This document shows positions 9,850 through 33,190 of a DNA stretch of 37,548 nt, one piece after another. Position 1 is the stretch's first letter. The number at the start of each line of letters is the position of its first letter. Below the pieces are notes generated by a model, which ran no database searches, was not told where the DNA came from, and was given only the letters and a program-made list of their open reading frames with translations. Source of the stretch: a virus. Taxonomy: Duplodnaviria > Heunggongvirae > Uroviricota > Caudoviricetes. The position numbers were made by a program, and so were the translations under genes. The stretch lies in IMG/VR virus record IMGVR_UViG_2636416131_000002, one strand, 5' to 3'.

Positions 9850-10182
9850 TTAGACGTAAATATCAATGGTGCCAGCGGTATTTGTATCGTCTTTTTTCTC
9901 TTCTTTTTTATCAGGCTGAACTGTCGCGTCTTTATTCTTTTTCTCTGCCTGCTGCCTTAACAACTGCTCCAGTTGAGCCCTGAGGCTTTCAATTTGCTTC
10001 TGTACCAATGCAGCCATTTCTTTTTTCTGCTGTGTCGTCATCCCCTCTTCCGATGAGATTTTCCCAAGCTTTTCAGTCAGCACCTGAATTTGTCTTGTGA
10101 TTTTGGCTATTTCTGATGTTCCTTCCGGGGCGGAGTTGTTTGAAATAACGGTTGAGGTATTTCCCTGAATTGTGACAGACAT
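9850..10182 (-). CDS. flxA: FlxA (FliA-regulated protein), 110 aa
   Basis: MSVTIQGNTSTVISNNSAPEG…, coiled-coil rich, AGGAG ribosome-binding site, sigma-28 promoter directly upstream. Matches Qin flxA in length and sequence as recalled. Confidence 0.85.
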   Translation of the reverse strand: MSVTIQGNTSTVISNNSAPEGTSEIAKITRQIQVLTEKLGKISSEEGMTTQQKKEMAALVQKQIESLRAQLEQLLRQQAEKKNKDATVQPDKKEEKKDDTNTAGTIDIYV

Positions 10183-28624: not shown

Positions 28625-29368
28625 ATGACCACACCAAATCCACTGGCAAAAACGAAAGGTGCGGGAACGACGTTCTGGATGTACACCGGCAAGGGCGATG
28701 CGTTTGCGAACCCTTTATCGGACACTGACTGGCTGCGTCTTGCGATGGTGAAGGATCTGCAACCTGGCGAAATGACCGCTGATGCAGAAGATGACACTTA
28801 TCTCGATGATGAAGATGCAGACTGGAAAACGACAACCCAGGGGCAGAAATCCGTCGGTGATACTTCGGCGACGCTGGCCTGGCGTCCGGGTGACAGCGGG
28901 CAGAAAAAACTGGTTCAGTTGTTCGACTCCGGTGAAGTCTGCGCGTTTCGTATCAAATATCCCAACGGCACTGTTGATGTTTTCCGTGGCTGGCTGAGCT
29001 CACTGGGTAAAACCATTGCCTCAAAAGACGTGATGACCCGCACAGTGAAAATCAGCGGTGTGGGGCGTCCGTATCTGGCAGAGGAAGGCACTGAAACAGT
29101 GAGCGTTACCGGGCTGACGGTGGCACCGGCATCTGCCAGTGTAAAAGTGGGAGCAACCACCACGCTGACCTTTACAGTAAAACCTGACGGAGCCAGTGAC
29201 AAAGCGATCAGTGTGCATTCGACAGATCCACAGACTGCCACGGTGACCCTGAACGGGCTTGTGGCCACGGTGAAAGGCGTGAAGCAGGGCAGTGTCAGCA
29301 TTGTGGGCATGACTTCTGACGGCGATTTTGTGGCAGTGGCTGCGGTGGCTGTCAGCGCCGCAGGTTAA
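28625..29368 (+). CDS. V: Major tail protein V (lambda gpV-like) with C-terminal Ig-like domain, 247 aa
   Basis: AAGGAGG 5 nt before the ATG; KGAGTT…W…Y, YLDDEDADW, FPNGTVDVFRGW motifs; C-terminal Big_2-like region. Confidence 0.9.
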   Translation: MTTPNPLAKTKGAGTTFWMYTGKGDAFANPLSDTDWLRLAMVKDLQPGEMTADAEDDTYLDDEDADWKTTTQGQKSVGDTSATLAWRPGDSGQKKLVQLFDSGEVCAFRIKYPNGTVDVFRGWLSSLGKTIASKDVMTRTVKISGVGRPYLAEEGTETVSVTGLTVAPASASVKVGATTTLTFTVKPDGASDKAISVHSTDPQTATVTLNGLVATVKGVKQGSVSIVGMTSDGDFVAVAAVAVSAAG

Positions 29369-29388: not shown

Positions 29389-29412
29389 GCCCCGGTTATC
29401 CGGGGCTTTTTT
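29389..29412 (+). terminator. Strong hairpin plus T6 run after the major tail gene
   Basis: GCCCCGG-TTAT-CCGGGGC followed by TTTTTT, 21 nt after the V stop. Confidence 0.7.
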
Positions 29413-29425
29413 GCAGGTGGAGAAC

Positions 29426-29815
29426 ATGATGTTTCTGAAACAGGGCACGTTTAATTATGAAAAGCAGTCCGTGGTGCTCAGTGAGCTGTCCGGGCTGCAG
29501 AGAATTGAATATCTGGCGTTTGTTCAGCAGCGAACGGCAAAGTTTGATGCCGAAGAGGGAGAACTGCCGGAGGCTGAACGACAGATTGCTTTTCTGCGGA
29601 TGGGGATGGATATCAATGCCTGGCTGGTTTCCCGCTCACTGTGGAATGCGGAACAGTCTCAGGATGTTGAGACGCTTTGCGCATCCGTTATTACAACATG
29701 GTCGTATGATGCCCTGGGAGCGGGGGCGGAGATGGTTCTGTCGCTGAGCGGTATGGGAGTCATTGAGAATGCCGGGGATTTGGAGCATGAGGTGCTGACG
29801 CCGGAAAAGTCCTGA
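29426..29815 (+). CDS. G: Tail assembly chaperone G (lambda gpG-like)
   Basis: Follows V; LSELS.LQRIEYLAF motif. Two adjacent ATGs (29426, 29429) after a GGTGGAG ribosome-binding site. Confidence 0.8.
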   Translation: MMFLKQGTFNYEKQSVVLSELSGLQRIEYLAFVQQRTAKFDAEEGELPEAERQIAFLRMGMDINAWLVSRSLWNAEQSQDVETLCASVITTWSYDALGAGAEMVLSLSGMGVIENAGDLEHEVLTPEKS

Positions 29816-30153
29816 CGCGGGAAATGCAGTTTGTCATGCGGCTTGCCCGGGAGTTCCGGCGGGCAGACTGGCGGCGGATGCTGTCGGAAATGTCGGCCAC
29901 TGAGCTTGGTGAGTGGGGCGATTATTTCCGGATGCAGAGCTTCAGTGATGTGTGGATGGATGCGCAGTTTGCCTCGCTGAAGGCATTGATCGTGAGAATG
30001 GTGTCCGGTAGCAGTGATGCTGCGGTGGCTGATTTCAGCCTTTTACCGGAAGAGAACGGGATACCGGAGCGAACGGACGAAGAACTGATGCATCTTGGGG
30101 AAGGTATTTCCGGAGGTGTGCGTTATGGACCAGATAGCCAACCTGGTCATTGA
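29426..30153 (+). CDS. Predicted G-T fusion product via programmed -1 ribosomal frameshift near the end of G
   Basis: The downstream frame (stop at 30153) is open back to 29800 in the -1 frame relative to G and overlaps the last G codons (CCGGAAAAG). This is the conserved G/GT arrangement of lambda-like tail chaperones. Confidence 0.55.
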
Positions 30154-33100
30154 TTTGGGGATTGATGCGGCAGAGTTTAAAAATGAAATTCCCCGTATCA
30201 AAAACCTTCTGAATGGTGCAGCCAGCGATGCAGAACGGTCTTCTGCCCGTATGCAGCGTTTTATGGAGCGTCAGACTCAGGCCGCCCGGCAGACAATGCA
30301 GGCGGTTTCTTCGGCTGCAACAGCCGCATCCGTCCATGCGCAGACGGTGGAGAAGAGCGCACAGGCTCATGAACGCATGGCCCGCGAGGTGGAGCAAACC
30401 CGCCAGCGTATGGAGGCACTGAGCCAGAAAATGCGCGAGGAACAGGCGCAGGCCATGGCTCTGGCGGAGGCTCAGGATAAAGCGGCTGCCGCGTTTTATC
30501 GTCAGATTGACAGTGTGAAACAGGCCAGTGCGGGGCTGCAGGAATTACAGCGTATTCAGCAGCAGATCCGACAGGCCAGAAACAGTGGCGGGATTGGTCA
30601 GCAGGATTATCTGGCGCTGATTTCTGAGGTTACGGCGAAAACCCGTGTTCTTACGCAGGCTGAGGAAGAGGCTACCCGACAGAAAGTGGCGTTTATCCGT
30701 CAGCTTAAAGAGCAGGCAACCCGCCAGAATCTTTCTTCTTCTGAGTTGCTTCGTGCTAAGGCTGCCCAGCTGGGGGTAAGCAGTGCTGCAGAAGTGTATA
30801 TCCGCAAAATGGAGCAGGCAGGAAAAGCCACGCATTCGCTGGGTCTGAAAAGTGCAGCGGCCCGCCAGGAGATAGGCGTTCTGATAGGTGAACTGGCCCG
30901 CGGCAATTTAGGGGCGCTGAGGGGATCCGGGATAACGCTGGCTAACCGTGCCGGATGGATAGACACTCTGATGTCACCGAAAGGCATGATGCTTGGCGGG
31001 GTTATTGGCGGTATTGCCGCGTCCGTCTATGGTCTGGGTAAAGCCTGGTATGACGGTCAGAAGGAGGGGGAAGAATTTAACCGCCAGTTGTCGCTGACGG
31101 GGCATTATGCCGGAGTCACTGCCGGGCAGCTGTGGACGCTCAGTCGTGCTATTTCCGGGAATGGTATCACGCAACATGCTGCAGCCGGTGCGCTGGCTCA
31201 GGTGGTGGGGAGTGGTGCATTTCGTGGAAACGATATCGGTATGGTGGCGAGAGCTGCCGCACAGATGGAGCGATCGGTTGGCCAGTCGGTCAGCGATACC
31301 ATAAATCAGTTTAAGCGGCTGAAGGATGATCCTGTAAATGCCGCGAAGGCTCTGGACAATGAGCTGCATTTTCTTACTGCCACTCAGCTTGAGCAGATAC
31401 GTGTCCTTGGGGATCAGGGACGGTCCAGTGATGCTGCACGGATAGCCATGTCTGCACTGGCAGAGGAAACCGGTCGGCGTACTGCGGATATTGATAATAA
31501 CCTCAATGCGCTTGGCAGTACGCTGAAGTATCTGTCTGATTTGTGGAGTCGTTTCTGGGATGCGGCCATGAATATTGGTCGTGAAGACTCGCTGGATGAA
31601 CAGATTGCCGCTTTACAGGAGAAAGTGTCGCGGGCGAAAAGACTCCCCTGGACGGCATCATCTTCTCAGGTTGAATACGATCAGCAGCGTCTTAACGATC
31701 TTCAGGAGAAAAAACGCCAGAAGGATTTGCAGGATGCAAAAGAGCAGGCAGAGCGGAATTATCAGGAGCAACAGAAACGACGTAATGCTGAAAATGCTGC
31801 ACTGAACCGGATGAATGAAACGGAAGCAGCACGACATCAGCGTGAAATTGCGCGTATTAATTCCATGCAGTACGCCGATCAGGCTGTCAGGGATGCAGCG
31901 ATACAACGTGAAAATGAACGTTACGAGAAAGCCCTGGCATCCGGTAAGAAAAAAACACGCGAAACCCGTAATGATGAGGCCACCCGGTTATTGCTGCAGT
32001 ACAGTCAGCAACAGGCACAGGTGGAAGGACAGATTGCTGCTGCAAGACAGTCAGCAGGCATTGCCACTGAAAAGATGACAGAAGCGCATAAACAGCTTCT
32101 GGCTCTGCAGCAGCGCATCAGCGATCTGGACGGGAAAAAACTGACGGCAGATGAAAAGAGTGTGCTGGCCCGTAAAGATGAACTGATTCAGGCACTGACG
32201 CTGCTGGATGTAAAACAGCAGGAGCTTCGGAAACAGACGGCACTCAACGATCTGAAGAAAAAAACAATTCAGCTGACCAGTCAACTGGCTGAAGAAGAGC
32301 GCGCTCAGCGTCAGCAACATGACCTGGATATCGCCACGGTGGGTATGGGTGATCAGCAGCGGCAGCGATATCAGGTACAACTGAGTCTTCGCCAGAAATA
32401 CCAGCAACAGCTGGAGCAGTTGAGGCGGGATAGTGAGCAGAAAGGGACATATAACACGGATGACTACAGAAAGGCCGAGCAGGCGCTGACGGAGAGCCTG
32501 AACCGACAACTGAATGAGAATCGCCGTTACTGGCAACAGCTTGAAGTTGTGCAGGGTAACTGGAAAAACGGAGTCCTGCGTGCATTTCAGGATTTTACCG
32601 TGGATGCAGATAATACGGCAGGAACAGCAGAACAGGTGTTCTCGTCAGCCTTCAGCAACATGGGAAATGGCCTGGCAACTTTTGTCACTACCGGCAAACT
32701 CAATTTCAAATCCTTCACCTCTTCTGTGCTGTCAGATATGGCGAAAATCCTGGCGCAGGCAACCATGATGAAATCGATAAAAGGGATTGGCAGTGTACTG
32801 GGATTTGATCTCAGCAGCCTTTCCCTGAATGCCAATGGGGGGATTTATCAGTCTGCTGATTTGAGTCGTTACAGTGGCACGGTGGTTAACCGTCCGACGT
32901 TTTTTGCTTTTGCAAAAGGCGCGGGTGTGATGGGTGAAGCGGGACCTGAAGCCATTCTGCCTCTGCGTCGTGGTGCTGACGGTAAGCTGGGGGTTGTGGC
33001 GGATATTGGTGGTTCAGGTATGGCGATGTTTGCCCCGCAGTACAACATCGAGATCAATAACGATGGCACGAACGGGCAGATAGGTCCGGCTGCCCTGAAG

Positions 33101-33190
33101 GTGGTTTATGACCTTGGGAAAAAAGCGGCAGCGGACTTTATGCAACAGCAGGCCCGTGATGGTGGTCGGTTAAGTGGAGCATATCGGTAA
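30125..33190 (+). CDS. H: Tail tape-measure protein (lambda gpH family), about 1021 aa
   Basis: Long coiled-coil-rich ORF after G/T. C-terminal segment (…NNDGTNGQIGPAALK.VYD…DGG) matches lambda H as recalled; N-terminal part appears different. GGAGG ribosome-binding site. Confidence 0.9.
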   Translation: MDQIANLVIDLGIDAAEFKNEIPRIKNLLNGAASDAERSSARMQRFMERQTQAARQTMQAVSSAATAASVHAQTVEKSAQAHERMAREVEQTRQRMEALSQKMREEQAQAMALAEAQDKAAAAFYRQIDSVKQASAGLQELQRIQQQIRQARNSGGIGQQDYLALISEVTAKTRVLTQAEEEATRQKVAFIRQLKEQATRQNLSSSELLRAKAAQLGVSSAAEVYIRKMEQAGKATHSLGLKSAAARQEIGVLIGELARGNLGALRGSGITLANRAGWIDTLMSPKGMMLGGVIGGIAASVYGLGKAWYDGQKEGEEFNRQLSLTGHYAGVTAGQLWTLSRAISGNGITQHAAAGALAQVVGSGAFRGNDIGMVARAAAQMERSVGQSVSDTINQFKRLKDDPVNAAKALDNELHFLTATQLEQIRVLGDQGRSSDAARIAMSALAEETGRRTADIDNNLNALGSTLKYLSDLWSRFWDAAMNIGREDSLDEQIAALQEKVSRAKRLPWTASSSQVEYDQQRLNDLQEKKRQKDLQDAKEQAERNYQEQQKRRNAENAALNRMNETEAARHQREIARINSMQYADQAVRDAAIQRENERYEKALASGKKKTRETRNDEATRLLLQYSQQQAQVEGQIAAARQSAGIATEKMTEAHKQLLALQQRISDLDGKKLTADEKSVLARKDELIQALTLLDVKQQELRKQTALNDLKKKTIQLTSQLAEEERAQRQQHDLDIATVGMGDQQRQRYQVQLSLRQKYQQQLEQLRRDSEQKGTYNTDDYRKAEQALTESLNRQLNENRRYWQQLEVVQGNWKNGVLRAFQDFTVDADNTAGTAEQVFSSAFSNMGNGLATFVTTGKLNFKSFTSSVLSDMAKILAQATMMKSIKGIGSVLGFDLSSLSLNANGGIYQSADLSRYSGTVVNRPTFFAFAKGAGVMGEAGPEAILPLRRGADGKLGVVADIGGSGMAMFAPQYNIEINNDGTNGQIGPAALKVVYDLGKKAAADFMQQQARDGGRLSGAYR

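What the first reader, a model, noticed from the sequence alone, without database searches (positions are those of the whole stretch)
29800..29826. Programmed -1 frameshift site joining tail chaperones G and T
The T frame is open in the -1 frame across the last codons of G (…CCG GAA AAG TCC TGA). The run GGAAAAG allows A-site slippage from AAG to AAA but is not the canonical lambda heptamer GGGAAAG, so frameshift efficiency and mechanism may differ here.
Basis: partly seen in the sequence, partly recalled or inferred. Interest (0 to 1): 0.4.

Follow-up and report, generated by a model that had tools for sequence, protein, structure and literature searches.

The report
Phage tail chaperone G-T frameshift site
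This is the well-known ribosomal -1 frameshift that fuses the two tail-assembly chaperone genes G and T of a lambda-like E. coli prophage, and its "unusual" slippery sequence GGAAAAG turns out to be the commonest version in this gene family, so the finding is real but ordinary.

Summary
G (29429..29815, stop TGA 29813-15) is a lambda gpG equivalog. The T domain lies in the -1 frame and is open only from 29791. A shift must therefore occur within 22 nt, and the only site there that allows re-pairing is G_GAA_AAG at 29803-29809.

The frameshift reading is supported by four results:
- The fused product aligns with lambda gpGT in one alignment that runs through the junction.
- In 46 diverged lineages the least-conserved codon position switches from the G frame to the T frame exactly at the heptamer.
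- The AAA core is invariant in all 46 lineages.
- The ATG at 29824 that databases use as T's start has no Shine-Dalgarno sequence and is Leu in relatives.

GGAAAAG is not a novelty. The identical heptamer is annotated as the slippery sequence in phage N15. It also occurs in phi80, HK225, Gifsy-1, Gifsy-2 and Fels-1, and in 36 of the 46 lineages surveyed. Lambda's GGGAAAG is the minority form.

Published in vitro work used G_GAA_AAG as the poorly slipping control, so a lower intrinsic efficiency is plausible. I found no conserved downstream RNA structure. No fusion protein has been demonstrated here.

Verdict: already known, low interest.

The parts
29389..29415 (+). Terminator-like hairpin GCCCCGGTTATCCGGGGC plus T-run, between the major tail gene and G (context; may lower G/T/H transcription relative to V)
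   Evidence: Annotated as a terminator at the homologous place in phages Ayreon and mEp460.
29429..29815 (+). Gene G, tail assembly chaperone, 128 aa. An alternative ATG lies at 29426. Shine-Dalgarno sequence GGTGGAG at 29416-29422.
   Evidence: Pfam PF06894 E=7e-40. TIGR01674 equivalog, 186.6 bits against a cutoff of 74.45. SD duplex -6.4 kcal/mol. RefSeq starts G at 29429.
29789..29794 (+). SD-like GAGGTG, 8 nt upstream of the heptamer. Possible weak 5' stimulator (inferred, not shown).
   Evidence: Anti-SD duplex -6.9 kcal/mol. Across the family, pairing potential rises at 6-9 nt upstream in about a third of lineages.
29788..29790 (+). TGA stop in the T (-1) frame. It sets the 5' limit of the shift window (29791-29812).
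29803..29809 (+). Slippery heptamer G_GAA_AAG. tRNA-Lys moves from AAG to AAA (cognate). tRNA-Glu moves from GAA to GGA (G.U at the middle position).
   Evidence: Identical to the annotated N15 slippery sequence. AAA invariant in 46 lineages.
29813..29815 (+). G stop codon TGA, one codon after the slip site
29809..30153 (+). T segment read in the -1 frame after the shift (114 aa plus stop). With G codons 29429-29809 it gives gpGT of 241 aa, junction ...HEVLTPEK|VLTREMQF...
   Evidence: Pfam PF06223 E=5e-15. TIGR01715, 134.1 bits against a cutoff of 77.35. Fusion built. Colinear with lambda gpGT through the junction.
29824..29826 (+). ATG used by GenBank and RefSeq as an independent start of T. 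Most likely just an internal Met codon of gpGT.
   Evidence: SD duplex only -2.2 kcal/mol, weaker than for about two thirds of the ATG triplets scored in the window. The homologous codon is CTG (Leu) in Gifsy-1, Gifsy-2, Fels-1, N15 and lambda.
30125..33190 (+). Tape measure gene (lambda H-like), the client of the G/GT chaperones. Its SD and ATG lie inside the last codons of T.
   Evidence: Pfam TMP_2, Tape_meas_lam_C and TMP_4. SD duplex -10.8 kcal/mol.
28625..29368 (+). Major tail tube gene (lambda V-like, with a C-terminal Big_2 domain), the upstream neighbour that defines the V-G-T-H gene order
   Evidence: Pfam PF16461 E=6e-67 and Big_2. Start at 28625 supported by SD AAGGAGGTG, -12.6 kcal/mol.

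Best explanation
A small fraction of ribosomes translating gene G slip back one nucleotide on G_GAA_AAG (29803-29809). They then continue in the T frame and make a 241-aa gpGT fusion (...LTPEK|VLTRE...). The rest terminate three nucleotides further on and make 128-aa gpG. By homology with lambda, many gpG copies and a few gpGT coat the tape measure protein, and the T domain recruits the tail tube protein. The slip rests on the single E. coli tRNA-Lys, which pairs better with AAA than with AAG. The P-site tRNA-Glu keeps its first and third base pairs on GGA and has a G.U pair in the middle. This makes it a near-canonical tandem slip, probably less efficient than lambda's G_GGA_AAG. Shown here: the gene order, the homology, the frame relation, the narrow shift window, the nucleotide-level conservation of the heptamer, and the frame switch in codon-position conservation. 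Inferred: that the fusion is made, its amount, and tandem rather than A-site-only slippage.
For: (1) G and T are lambda equivalogs lying between the V-like and H-like genes. (2) T is in the -1 frame and open only from 29791, so the shift window is 22 nt and holds one re-pairing site. (3) The conceptual fusion aligns with lambda gpGT in one BLASTP alignment across the junction (34% identity over 251 aa, E=8e-43) and matches a full-length PHROG model (phrog_32165, residues 1-237). (4) The alignment of T domains begins at the Gly-Lys codons of the heptamer. E7 and F10, both upstream of the first ATG, are invariant. (5) In 46 lineages below 90% nucleotide identity, the least conserved codon position is the G-frame wobble in 14 of 15 triplets upstream and the T-frame wobble in most triplets downstream. 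The flip occurs at the heptamer. (6) The G-frame wobble positions inside the heptamer carry 1.59, 2.0 and 1.57 bits, against a mean of 0.11 bits upstream, so selection acts on the nucleotides themselves. Position 0 (G) is not decoded in either product after a slip, which favours P-site re-pairing. (7) The same heptamer is annotated as the slippery sequence in N15 and sits at the same place in phi80, HK225, mEp043, Gifsy-1, Gifsy-2 and Fels-1. (8) ATG 29824 lacks an SD (-2.2 kcal/mol, against -6.4 for G and -10.8 for H). (9) Literature: A_AAG is the best tetramer in E. coli (PMC4066793). The NNA_AAG class is used by IS1222 (PMC5009743). An A.U to G.U change costs about 5 kJ/mol, and the A-site G to A change at the wobble position gains about 2.9 kJ/mol (PMC6787027).
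Against: No protein evidence is available here. In a reconstituted system AUG GAA AAG gave mainly 0-frame product and served as the poorly slipping control (PMC6924986). The A_AAG tetramer without a stimulator was barely above background, about 0.15% (PMC4066793). I found no conserved stimulator: the downstream fold has z=-0.85 and RNAalifold found no covarying pairs in 28 sequences. How enough gpGT is made therefore remains unexplained. The lineage survey was seeded with this window's T protein and kept the 80 best matches, so the 36/46 figure is biased towards its relatives.
Confidence: 0.88

Rival explanations
1. T is an independent gene translated from its own ATG at 29824, as annotated in GenBank and RefSeq, and no frameshift is needed.
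For: All phage and RefSeq records inspected annotate T as a separate CDS from this ATG. An ATG does exist 9 nt after the G stop.
Against: The SD duplex upstream of 29824 is -2.2 kcal/mol, weaker than for about two thirds of the ATG triplets scored in the window. Real starts here score -5 to -12.6. The codon is CTG (Leu) in Gifsy-1, Gifsy-2, Fels-1, N15, phi80 and lambda. T-frame codon periodicity and conserved residues (E7, F10) extend upstream of it to the heptamer. In lambda only the fusion is made (established knowledge: Levin, Hendrix and Casjens 1993, cited in PMC5009743).
Confidence: 0.04
2. The shift is an A-site-only (single tRNA-Lys) slip on the tetramer A_AAG, of the NNA_AAG hexanucleotide type, and P-site re-pairing plays no part.
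For: The only invariant part across 46 lineages is AAA followed by G or A. The P-site codon varies (GAA, GGA, GTA, GCA). NNA_AAG sites such as CGA_AAG are used naturally (PMC5009743). The product would have the same sequence.
Against: Position 0, a G-frame wobble base that is not decoded in the fusion, is G in 43 of 46 lineages (1.59 bits, against a background of 0.11). Position 1 is G in 44 of 46. This is expected only if the first base pair of the P-site tRNA in the -1 frame matters. tRNA-Glu has restricted wobble, which by the published model does not favour freeing the third base (my recollection of Licznar et al. 2003; the paper could not be read).
Confidence: 0.25
3. The fusion arises from RNA polymerase slippage on the A4 run rather than from ribosomal slippage.
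For: A run of four A residues sits at the site. Transcriptional slippage is a known alternative route to frame change (PMC5009743).
Against: From my own knowledge, known transcriptional slippage sites need much longer homopolymer runs (about 7-9 or more). Conservation of G at positions 0, 1 and 6 fits codon-anticodon re-pairing rather than a homopolymer requirement. Lambda's homologous site GGGAAAG has only three A residues and shifts at the ribosome.
Confidence: 0.02

Closest known systems
Bacteriophage lambda G / G-T programmed -1 frameshift (G_GGA_AAG)
   Same: Same gene order V-G-T-H. Equivalog G and T domains. T lies in the -1 frame overlapping the end of G. The slip site is at the homologous codons, the A-site slip AAG to AAA is the same, and the fusion is colinear through the junction.
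   Different: The third base of the heptamer is A rather than G, so the P-site codon is GAA (Glu) rather than GGA (Gly) and re-pairs with a central G.U. The G stop lies 3 nt after the heptamer rather than 15 nt. T is shorter (114 aa against 145 aa) and lacks lambda's duplicated C-terminal GGVR(F/Y)G motif.
Phage N15 genes 14/15, with the annotated 'slippery sequence for -1 translational frameshift' at NC_001901 10027-10033
   Same: Identical heptamer GGAAAAG at the homologous position in the same phase. Same family of G and T proteins (T about 41% identical).
   Different: N15's G frame continues 5 codons past the heptamer, whereas here it continues 1 codon. The flanking sequences have diverged. 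I could not check whether N15's site was tested experimentally.
Gifsy-1, Gifsy-2 and Fels-1 prophages of Salmonella
   Same: CCGGAAAAG(T/C)CCTGA at the end of the gpG homolog, despite only 67-70% nucleotide identity overall. The Gifsy records describe T as made by translational frameshifting from G.
   Different: Different host. The G C-terminal tails have diverged. The T-frame codon homologous to ATG 29824 is CTG.
NNA_AAG hexanucleotide -1 frameshift sites (IS1222 G_CGA_AAG; Bacillus cdd A_CGA_AAG)
   Same: The slip depends mainly on tRNA-Lys moving from AAG to AAA, with an imperfect P-site partner (PMC5009743).
   Different: Those sites have CGA in the P site, and IS elements use a downstream structure. 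Here the P-site codon is GAA preceded by a conserved G, and no conserved structure was found.

Membership tests
Lambda-type tail assembly chaperone pair G/GT with conserved programmed frameshift (Xu, Hendrix and Duda 2004 class) | Two ORFs located between the major tail gene and the tape measure gene | tested here: met
   V-like 28625-29368, G 29429-29815, T to 30153, H-like 30125-33190.
Lambda-type tail assembly chaperone pair G/GT with conserved programmed frameshift (Xu, Hendrix and Duda 2004 class) | The second ORF overlaps the 3' end of the first in the -1 frame | tested here: met
   The T frame is the G frame minus 1 and is open from 29791. The overlap is 22 nt.
Lambda-type tail assembly chaperone pair G/GT with conserved programmed frameshift (Xu, Hendrix and Duda 2004 class) | Sequence homology to gpG and gpT | tested here: met
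   PF06894 E=7e-40 and PF06223 E=5e-15. TIGR01674 and TIGR01715 are both above their curated cutoffs.
Lambda-type tail assembly chaperone pair G/GT with conserved programmed frameshift (Xu, Hendrix and Duda 2004 class) | A slippery sequence within the overlap, conserved among relatives | tested here: met
   G_GAA_AAG at 29803-29809. Identical in 87 of 87 close relatives and 36 of 46 lineages. AAA is invariant.
Lambda-type tail assembly chaperone pair G/GT with conserved programmed frameshift (Xu, Hendrix and Duda 2004 class) | The downstream ORF lacks its own translation start | tested here: met
   No SD at ATG 29824 (-2.2 kcal/mol). The ATG is not conserved, and coding conservation starts at the heptamer.
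Lambda-type tail assembly chaperone pair G/GT with conserved programmed frameshift (Xu, Hendrix and Duda 2004 class) | A fusion protein is made at a low, fixed ratio to the short product and is required for tail assembly | not testable with these tools
   Needs protein analysis and genetics. The lambda ratio is about 30:1 according to PMC5009743.
Canonical X_XXY_YYZ heptanucleotide slippery sites | Both the P-site and the A-site tRNA can re-pair with full first- and second-position matches in the -1 frame (XXX YYY) | tested here: not met
   The A site is satisfied (AAG to AAA). The P site goes from GAA to GGA and has a second-position G.U (sequence). PMC6924986 calls this a second-position mismatch.
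-1 frameshift cassettes with a 3' RNA structure stimulator (dnaX and IS3/IS911 type) | A stable, conserved hairpin or pseudoknot a few nucleotides downstream of the shift site | tested here: not met
   The fold of 29810-29900 is -38 kcal/mol against -34.9 +/- 3.7 for shuffles, z=-0.85. The RNAalifold consensus over 28 lineages is -1.06 kcal/mol with no compensatory pair.
-1 frameshift cassettes with a 5' Shine-Dalgarno-like stimulator (dnaX type) | An SD-like sequence 6-17 nt upstream of the motif | tested here: inconclusive
   GAGGTG at 29789-94 (-6.9 kcal/mol) lies 8 nt upstream. Only about a third of lineages have a comparable element at 6-9 nt, and it overlaps a conserved Glu codon.

The most novel reading that the evidence does not exclude
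G_GAA_AAG is the heptamer that ribosome biochemists use as a poorly slipping control. It is also the dominant natural shift site of the lambda-family G/GT genes across Enterobacterales, and probably the ancestral one, with lambda's textbook G_GGA_AAG a derived minority. If tail assembly in these phages needs a G:GT ratio like lambda's, an unrecognised stimulator must raise slippage at this site. Candidates are the SD-like element, the nearby stop codon, the nascent G tail or the 3' YCC context. Otherwise these phages work with much less gpGT than lambda.
Probability: 0.12. Interest if true: 0.45.

Novelty: already known. Interest (0 to 1): 0.15.

Why it matters
The finding has little importance as a discovery. 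The G-T frameshift is a textbook case, and this exact heptamer was annotated in phage N15.

There are two practical points. First, databases annotate T as a free-standing gene starting at an unsupported ATG. This segment occurs in 1848 of 5426 complete E. coli genomes, so the real product, gpGT, is missing from those proteomes. Second, GGAAAAG sites offer something lambda cannot: the two frames encode different residues at the P-site codon (Glu against Gly). The junction peptide therefore reports directly where and how the shift occurs.

Tried and rejected
- **Downstream stimulatory RNA structure.** Single-sequence folds of 29810-29900 and 29760-29960 are no more stable than shuffles (z=-0.85 and -0.89). 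RNAalifold on 28 diverged GGAAAAG loci found nothing. Rejected.
- **Independent start for T at ATG 29824 or 29836.** The SD duplexes are weak (-2.2 and -4.3 kcal/mol) and the start codons are not conserved. Rejected.
- **Other shift sites in the 22-nt window.** No other codon allows re-pairing.
- **A +1 or -2 relation between the frames.** The third frame is closed.
- **Literature.** Searches for GGAAAAG with 'frameshift' returned only unrelated papers. Xu et al. 2004 (Mol Cell) and Licznar et al. 2003 (EMBO J) are not held. I therefore could not check whether a GGAAAAG site was ever tested experimentally, or how GAA_AAG ranked among the NNA_AAG motifs.
- **SD-like upstream stimulator.** Present in this lineage but not general across the family. 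Left as inconclusive.

Full report
**What is there**

The window is a lambdoid E. coli prophage. The 781 bases around the finding are 99.7% identical to phage Ayreon and about 98% identical to phages cdtI and mEp460. The same segment is present in 1848 of 5426 complete E. coli genomes.

The gene layout is:
- Gene G runs from ATG 29429 to TGA 29813-15. An alternative ATG lies at 29426, and the Shine-Dalgarno sequence GGTGGAG precedes it.
- G is a lambda gpG homolog (PF06894, E=7e-40; TIGR01674 equivalog, 186.6 bits).
- The T domain (PF06223, E=5e-15; TIGR01715, 134.1 bits) lies in the -1 frame.
- The T frame has a TGA at 29788-90, is open from 29791, and ends at 30151-53.
- The neighbours are a V-like tail tube gene (28625-29368) and an H-like tape measure gene (30125-33190).

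**The shift window**

The -1 frame opens at 29791 and G stops at 29813. A ribosome that is to reach T must therefore change frame within 22 nucleotides. The G-frame codons there are GAG GTG CTG ACG CCG GAA AAG TCC. Only A_AAG allows cognate re-pairing in the -1 frame, and together with the preceding codon it forms G_GAA_AAG at 29803-29809.

The heptamer by itself is not significant. It occurs 13 times in the window against 6.2 expected. By my own estimate, an in-phase A_AAG in such a short overlap would arise by chance about 3% of the time.

**Comparative evidence that the frame changes here**

I collected the homologous junctions from annotated phages and from one-genome-per-species bacterial assemblies and IMG/VR contigs, using an alignment of T domains.
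- All 87 close relatives carry GGAAAAG.
- After collapsing to 46 lineages below 90% nucleotide identity, the counts are GGAAAAG 36, GGGAAAG 3, GGCAAAA 2, and one each of AGAAAAG, GGGAAAA, GGTAAAG, AAAAAAG and CCCAAAA. AAA at heptamer positions 3-5 is invariant.
- Upstream of the heptamer, the least conserved position of each triplet is the G-frame wobble in 14 of 15 triplets (mean 0.11 bits).
- From the heptamer onward the least conserved position is the T-frame wobble (0.69 bits, against 1.24 and 1.42 for the other two positions). The flip occurs exactly at the heptamer.
- Inside the heptamer the three G-frame wobble positions carry 1.59, 2.0 and 1.57 bits, so the nucleotides themselves are under selection.
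- The T-domain protein alignment starts at the Gly-Lys codons and has invariant residues (E7, F10) before any ATG.
- The conceptual fusion (241 aa, junction HEVLTPEK|VLTREMQF) aligns with lambda gpGT in a single alignment through the junction. It also matches a full-length PHROG model.

**The rival reading: an independent start for T**

GenBank and RefSeq annotate T from ATG 29824 with no join.
- That ATG has an anti-SD duplex of only -2.2 kcal/mol, weaker than for about two thirds of the ATG triplets scored in the window. The values are -6.4 for G, -10.8 for H and -12.6 for V.
- The homologous codon is CTG (Leu) in Gifsy-1, Gifsy-2, Fels-1, N15, phi80 and lambda.

This rival is rejected.

**Is GGAAAAG unusual?**

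It is not unusual in nature.
- The N15 record annotates 10027-10033, which is GGAAAAG, as the 'slippery sequence for -1 translational frameshift'.
- The Gifsy records describe T as part of a G frameshift product. They keep CCGGAAAAG at only 67-70% overall nucleotide identity.
- On a neighbour-joining tree of T domains, GGAAAAG is spread over the whole tree. Lambda-type GGGAAAG is confined to one clade plus Edwardsiella.
- The survey was seeded with this window's protein, so the proportions are biased towards its relatives.

**How it most likely works**

E. coli has one tRNA-Lys, which pairs better with AAA than with AAG. A_AAG is the most shift-prone tetramer in E. coli (PMC4066793), and the NNA_AAG class is used naturally (PMC5009743).

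The P-site tRNA-Glu, moving from GAA to GGA, keeps its first and third pairs and gets a central G.U. Position 0 is a wobble base of G and is not decoded in the fusion. It is G in 43 of 46 lineages. This argues that P-site re-pairing matters, and so for a relaxed tandem slip rather than an A-site-only slip. That step is inference.

By analogy with the thermodynamic model of Bock et al., the -1 frame is only mildly disfavoured: an A.U to G.U change costs about 5 kJ/mol, and the A-site G to A change at the wobble position gains about 2.9 kJ/mol (PMC6787027). That model did not test second-position changes.

Two published results point to low efficiency:
- Peng et al. used AUG GAA AAG as the sequence 'unfavorable for slippage' and saw mainly 0-frame product (PMC6924986).
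- Unstimulated A_AAG gave about 0.15%.

**Search for stimulators**
- The downstream folds are no better than shuffles.
- RNAalifold found no conserved or covarying structure in 28 lineages.
- This lineage has GAGGTG 8 nt upstream (-6.9 kcal/mol). There is a modest family-wide rise in SD-like pairing at 6-9 nt upstream, in about a third of lineages. This is inconclusive.
- The G stop lies 0, 3 or 15 nt after the heptamer in different lineages, so stop proximity is not a conserved feature.

**Comparison and verdict**

This is a member of the lambda G/GT chaperone-frameshift family. Every defining feature that can be tested in silico is met, and protein production is not testable here.

It is not a canonical X_XXY_YYZ site, and it lacks a structure-type stimulator. 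In this it resembles lambda, where, as I recall from Levin et al. 1993 and did not verify here, none is required.

The finding is correct and already known. The only mildly interesting residue is that the natural majority site is one that biochemists treat as poorly slippery. That leaves open whether these phages need less gpGT or have an unrecognised stimulator.

Noticed in passing
window 29824-30153; RefSeq WP_001161009.1 in L179 1945-2274: GenBank and RefSeq annotate T as a stand-alone CDS from an ATG with no ribosome-binding site, and no record inspected joins G and T. The real product, gpGT, is therefore absent from the proteomes of about a third of complete E. coli genomes (1848 of 5426).
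   Followed up: yes
loci L074-L080, L082-L086, L093, L096-L098 (genome contigs): Sequence around the G-T junction identical to phage lambda turns up in assemblies labelled Kitasatospora, Paenibacillus, Enterococcus, Leeuwenhoekiella, Shewanella, Pseudomonas, Pseudoxanthomonas, Psychrobacter and others. Several of the contigs are short and have coverage near 1x. This is almost certainly lambda DNA contamination of those assemblies. Enterobacterial prophage sequence also sits in MAGs labelled Bacillota (L020) and Geobacteraceae (L065).
   Followed up: partly
window 29389-29415: A strong terminator-like hairpin (7 G-C pairs plus a T-run) lies between the major tail gene and G. It is also annotated in Ayreon, mEp460 and N15. 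It could set the V to G/T/H expression ratio at the level of transcription.
   Followed up: partly
window 30110-30127: The invariant C-terminal T motif G-G-V-R-Y-G is encoded by GGAGGTGTGCGTTATGG. The same bases form the strong Shine-Dalgarno sequence (-10.8 kcal/mol) and the ATG of the tape measure gene. The conservation of the peptide motif may partly reflect this second use.
   Followed up: partly
window 30027-30044: The mEp460 record annotates a rho-independent terminator inside the T coding region at the homologous place (GGCTGATTTCAGCC followed by TTTT). My consensus scan did not pick it up.
   Followed up: no
window, 13 sites (e.g. 9201, 11189, 27253, 30821): GGAAAAG occurs 13 times in the window against 6.2 expected from shuffles (3 of 100 shuffles reach 13). 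I did not check whether any other copy is in the G_GAA_AAG phase of a gene with an open -1 frame.
   Followed up: no
L031/L032 (Morganella), L070/L071/L087 (Pantoea), L027/L029 (Kluyvera, Ewingella): Rare variants at the homologous site: A_GAA_AAG, G_GTA_AAG and G_GCA_AAA. These have even poorer P-site re-pairing, and in some the 0-frame stop follows the site directly. They would be useful natural test cases for how little P-site pairing is needed.
   Followed up: no
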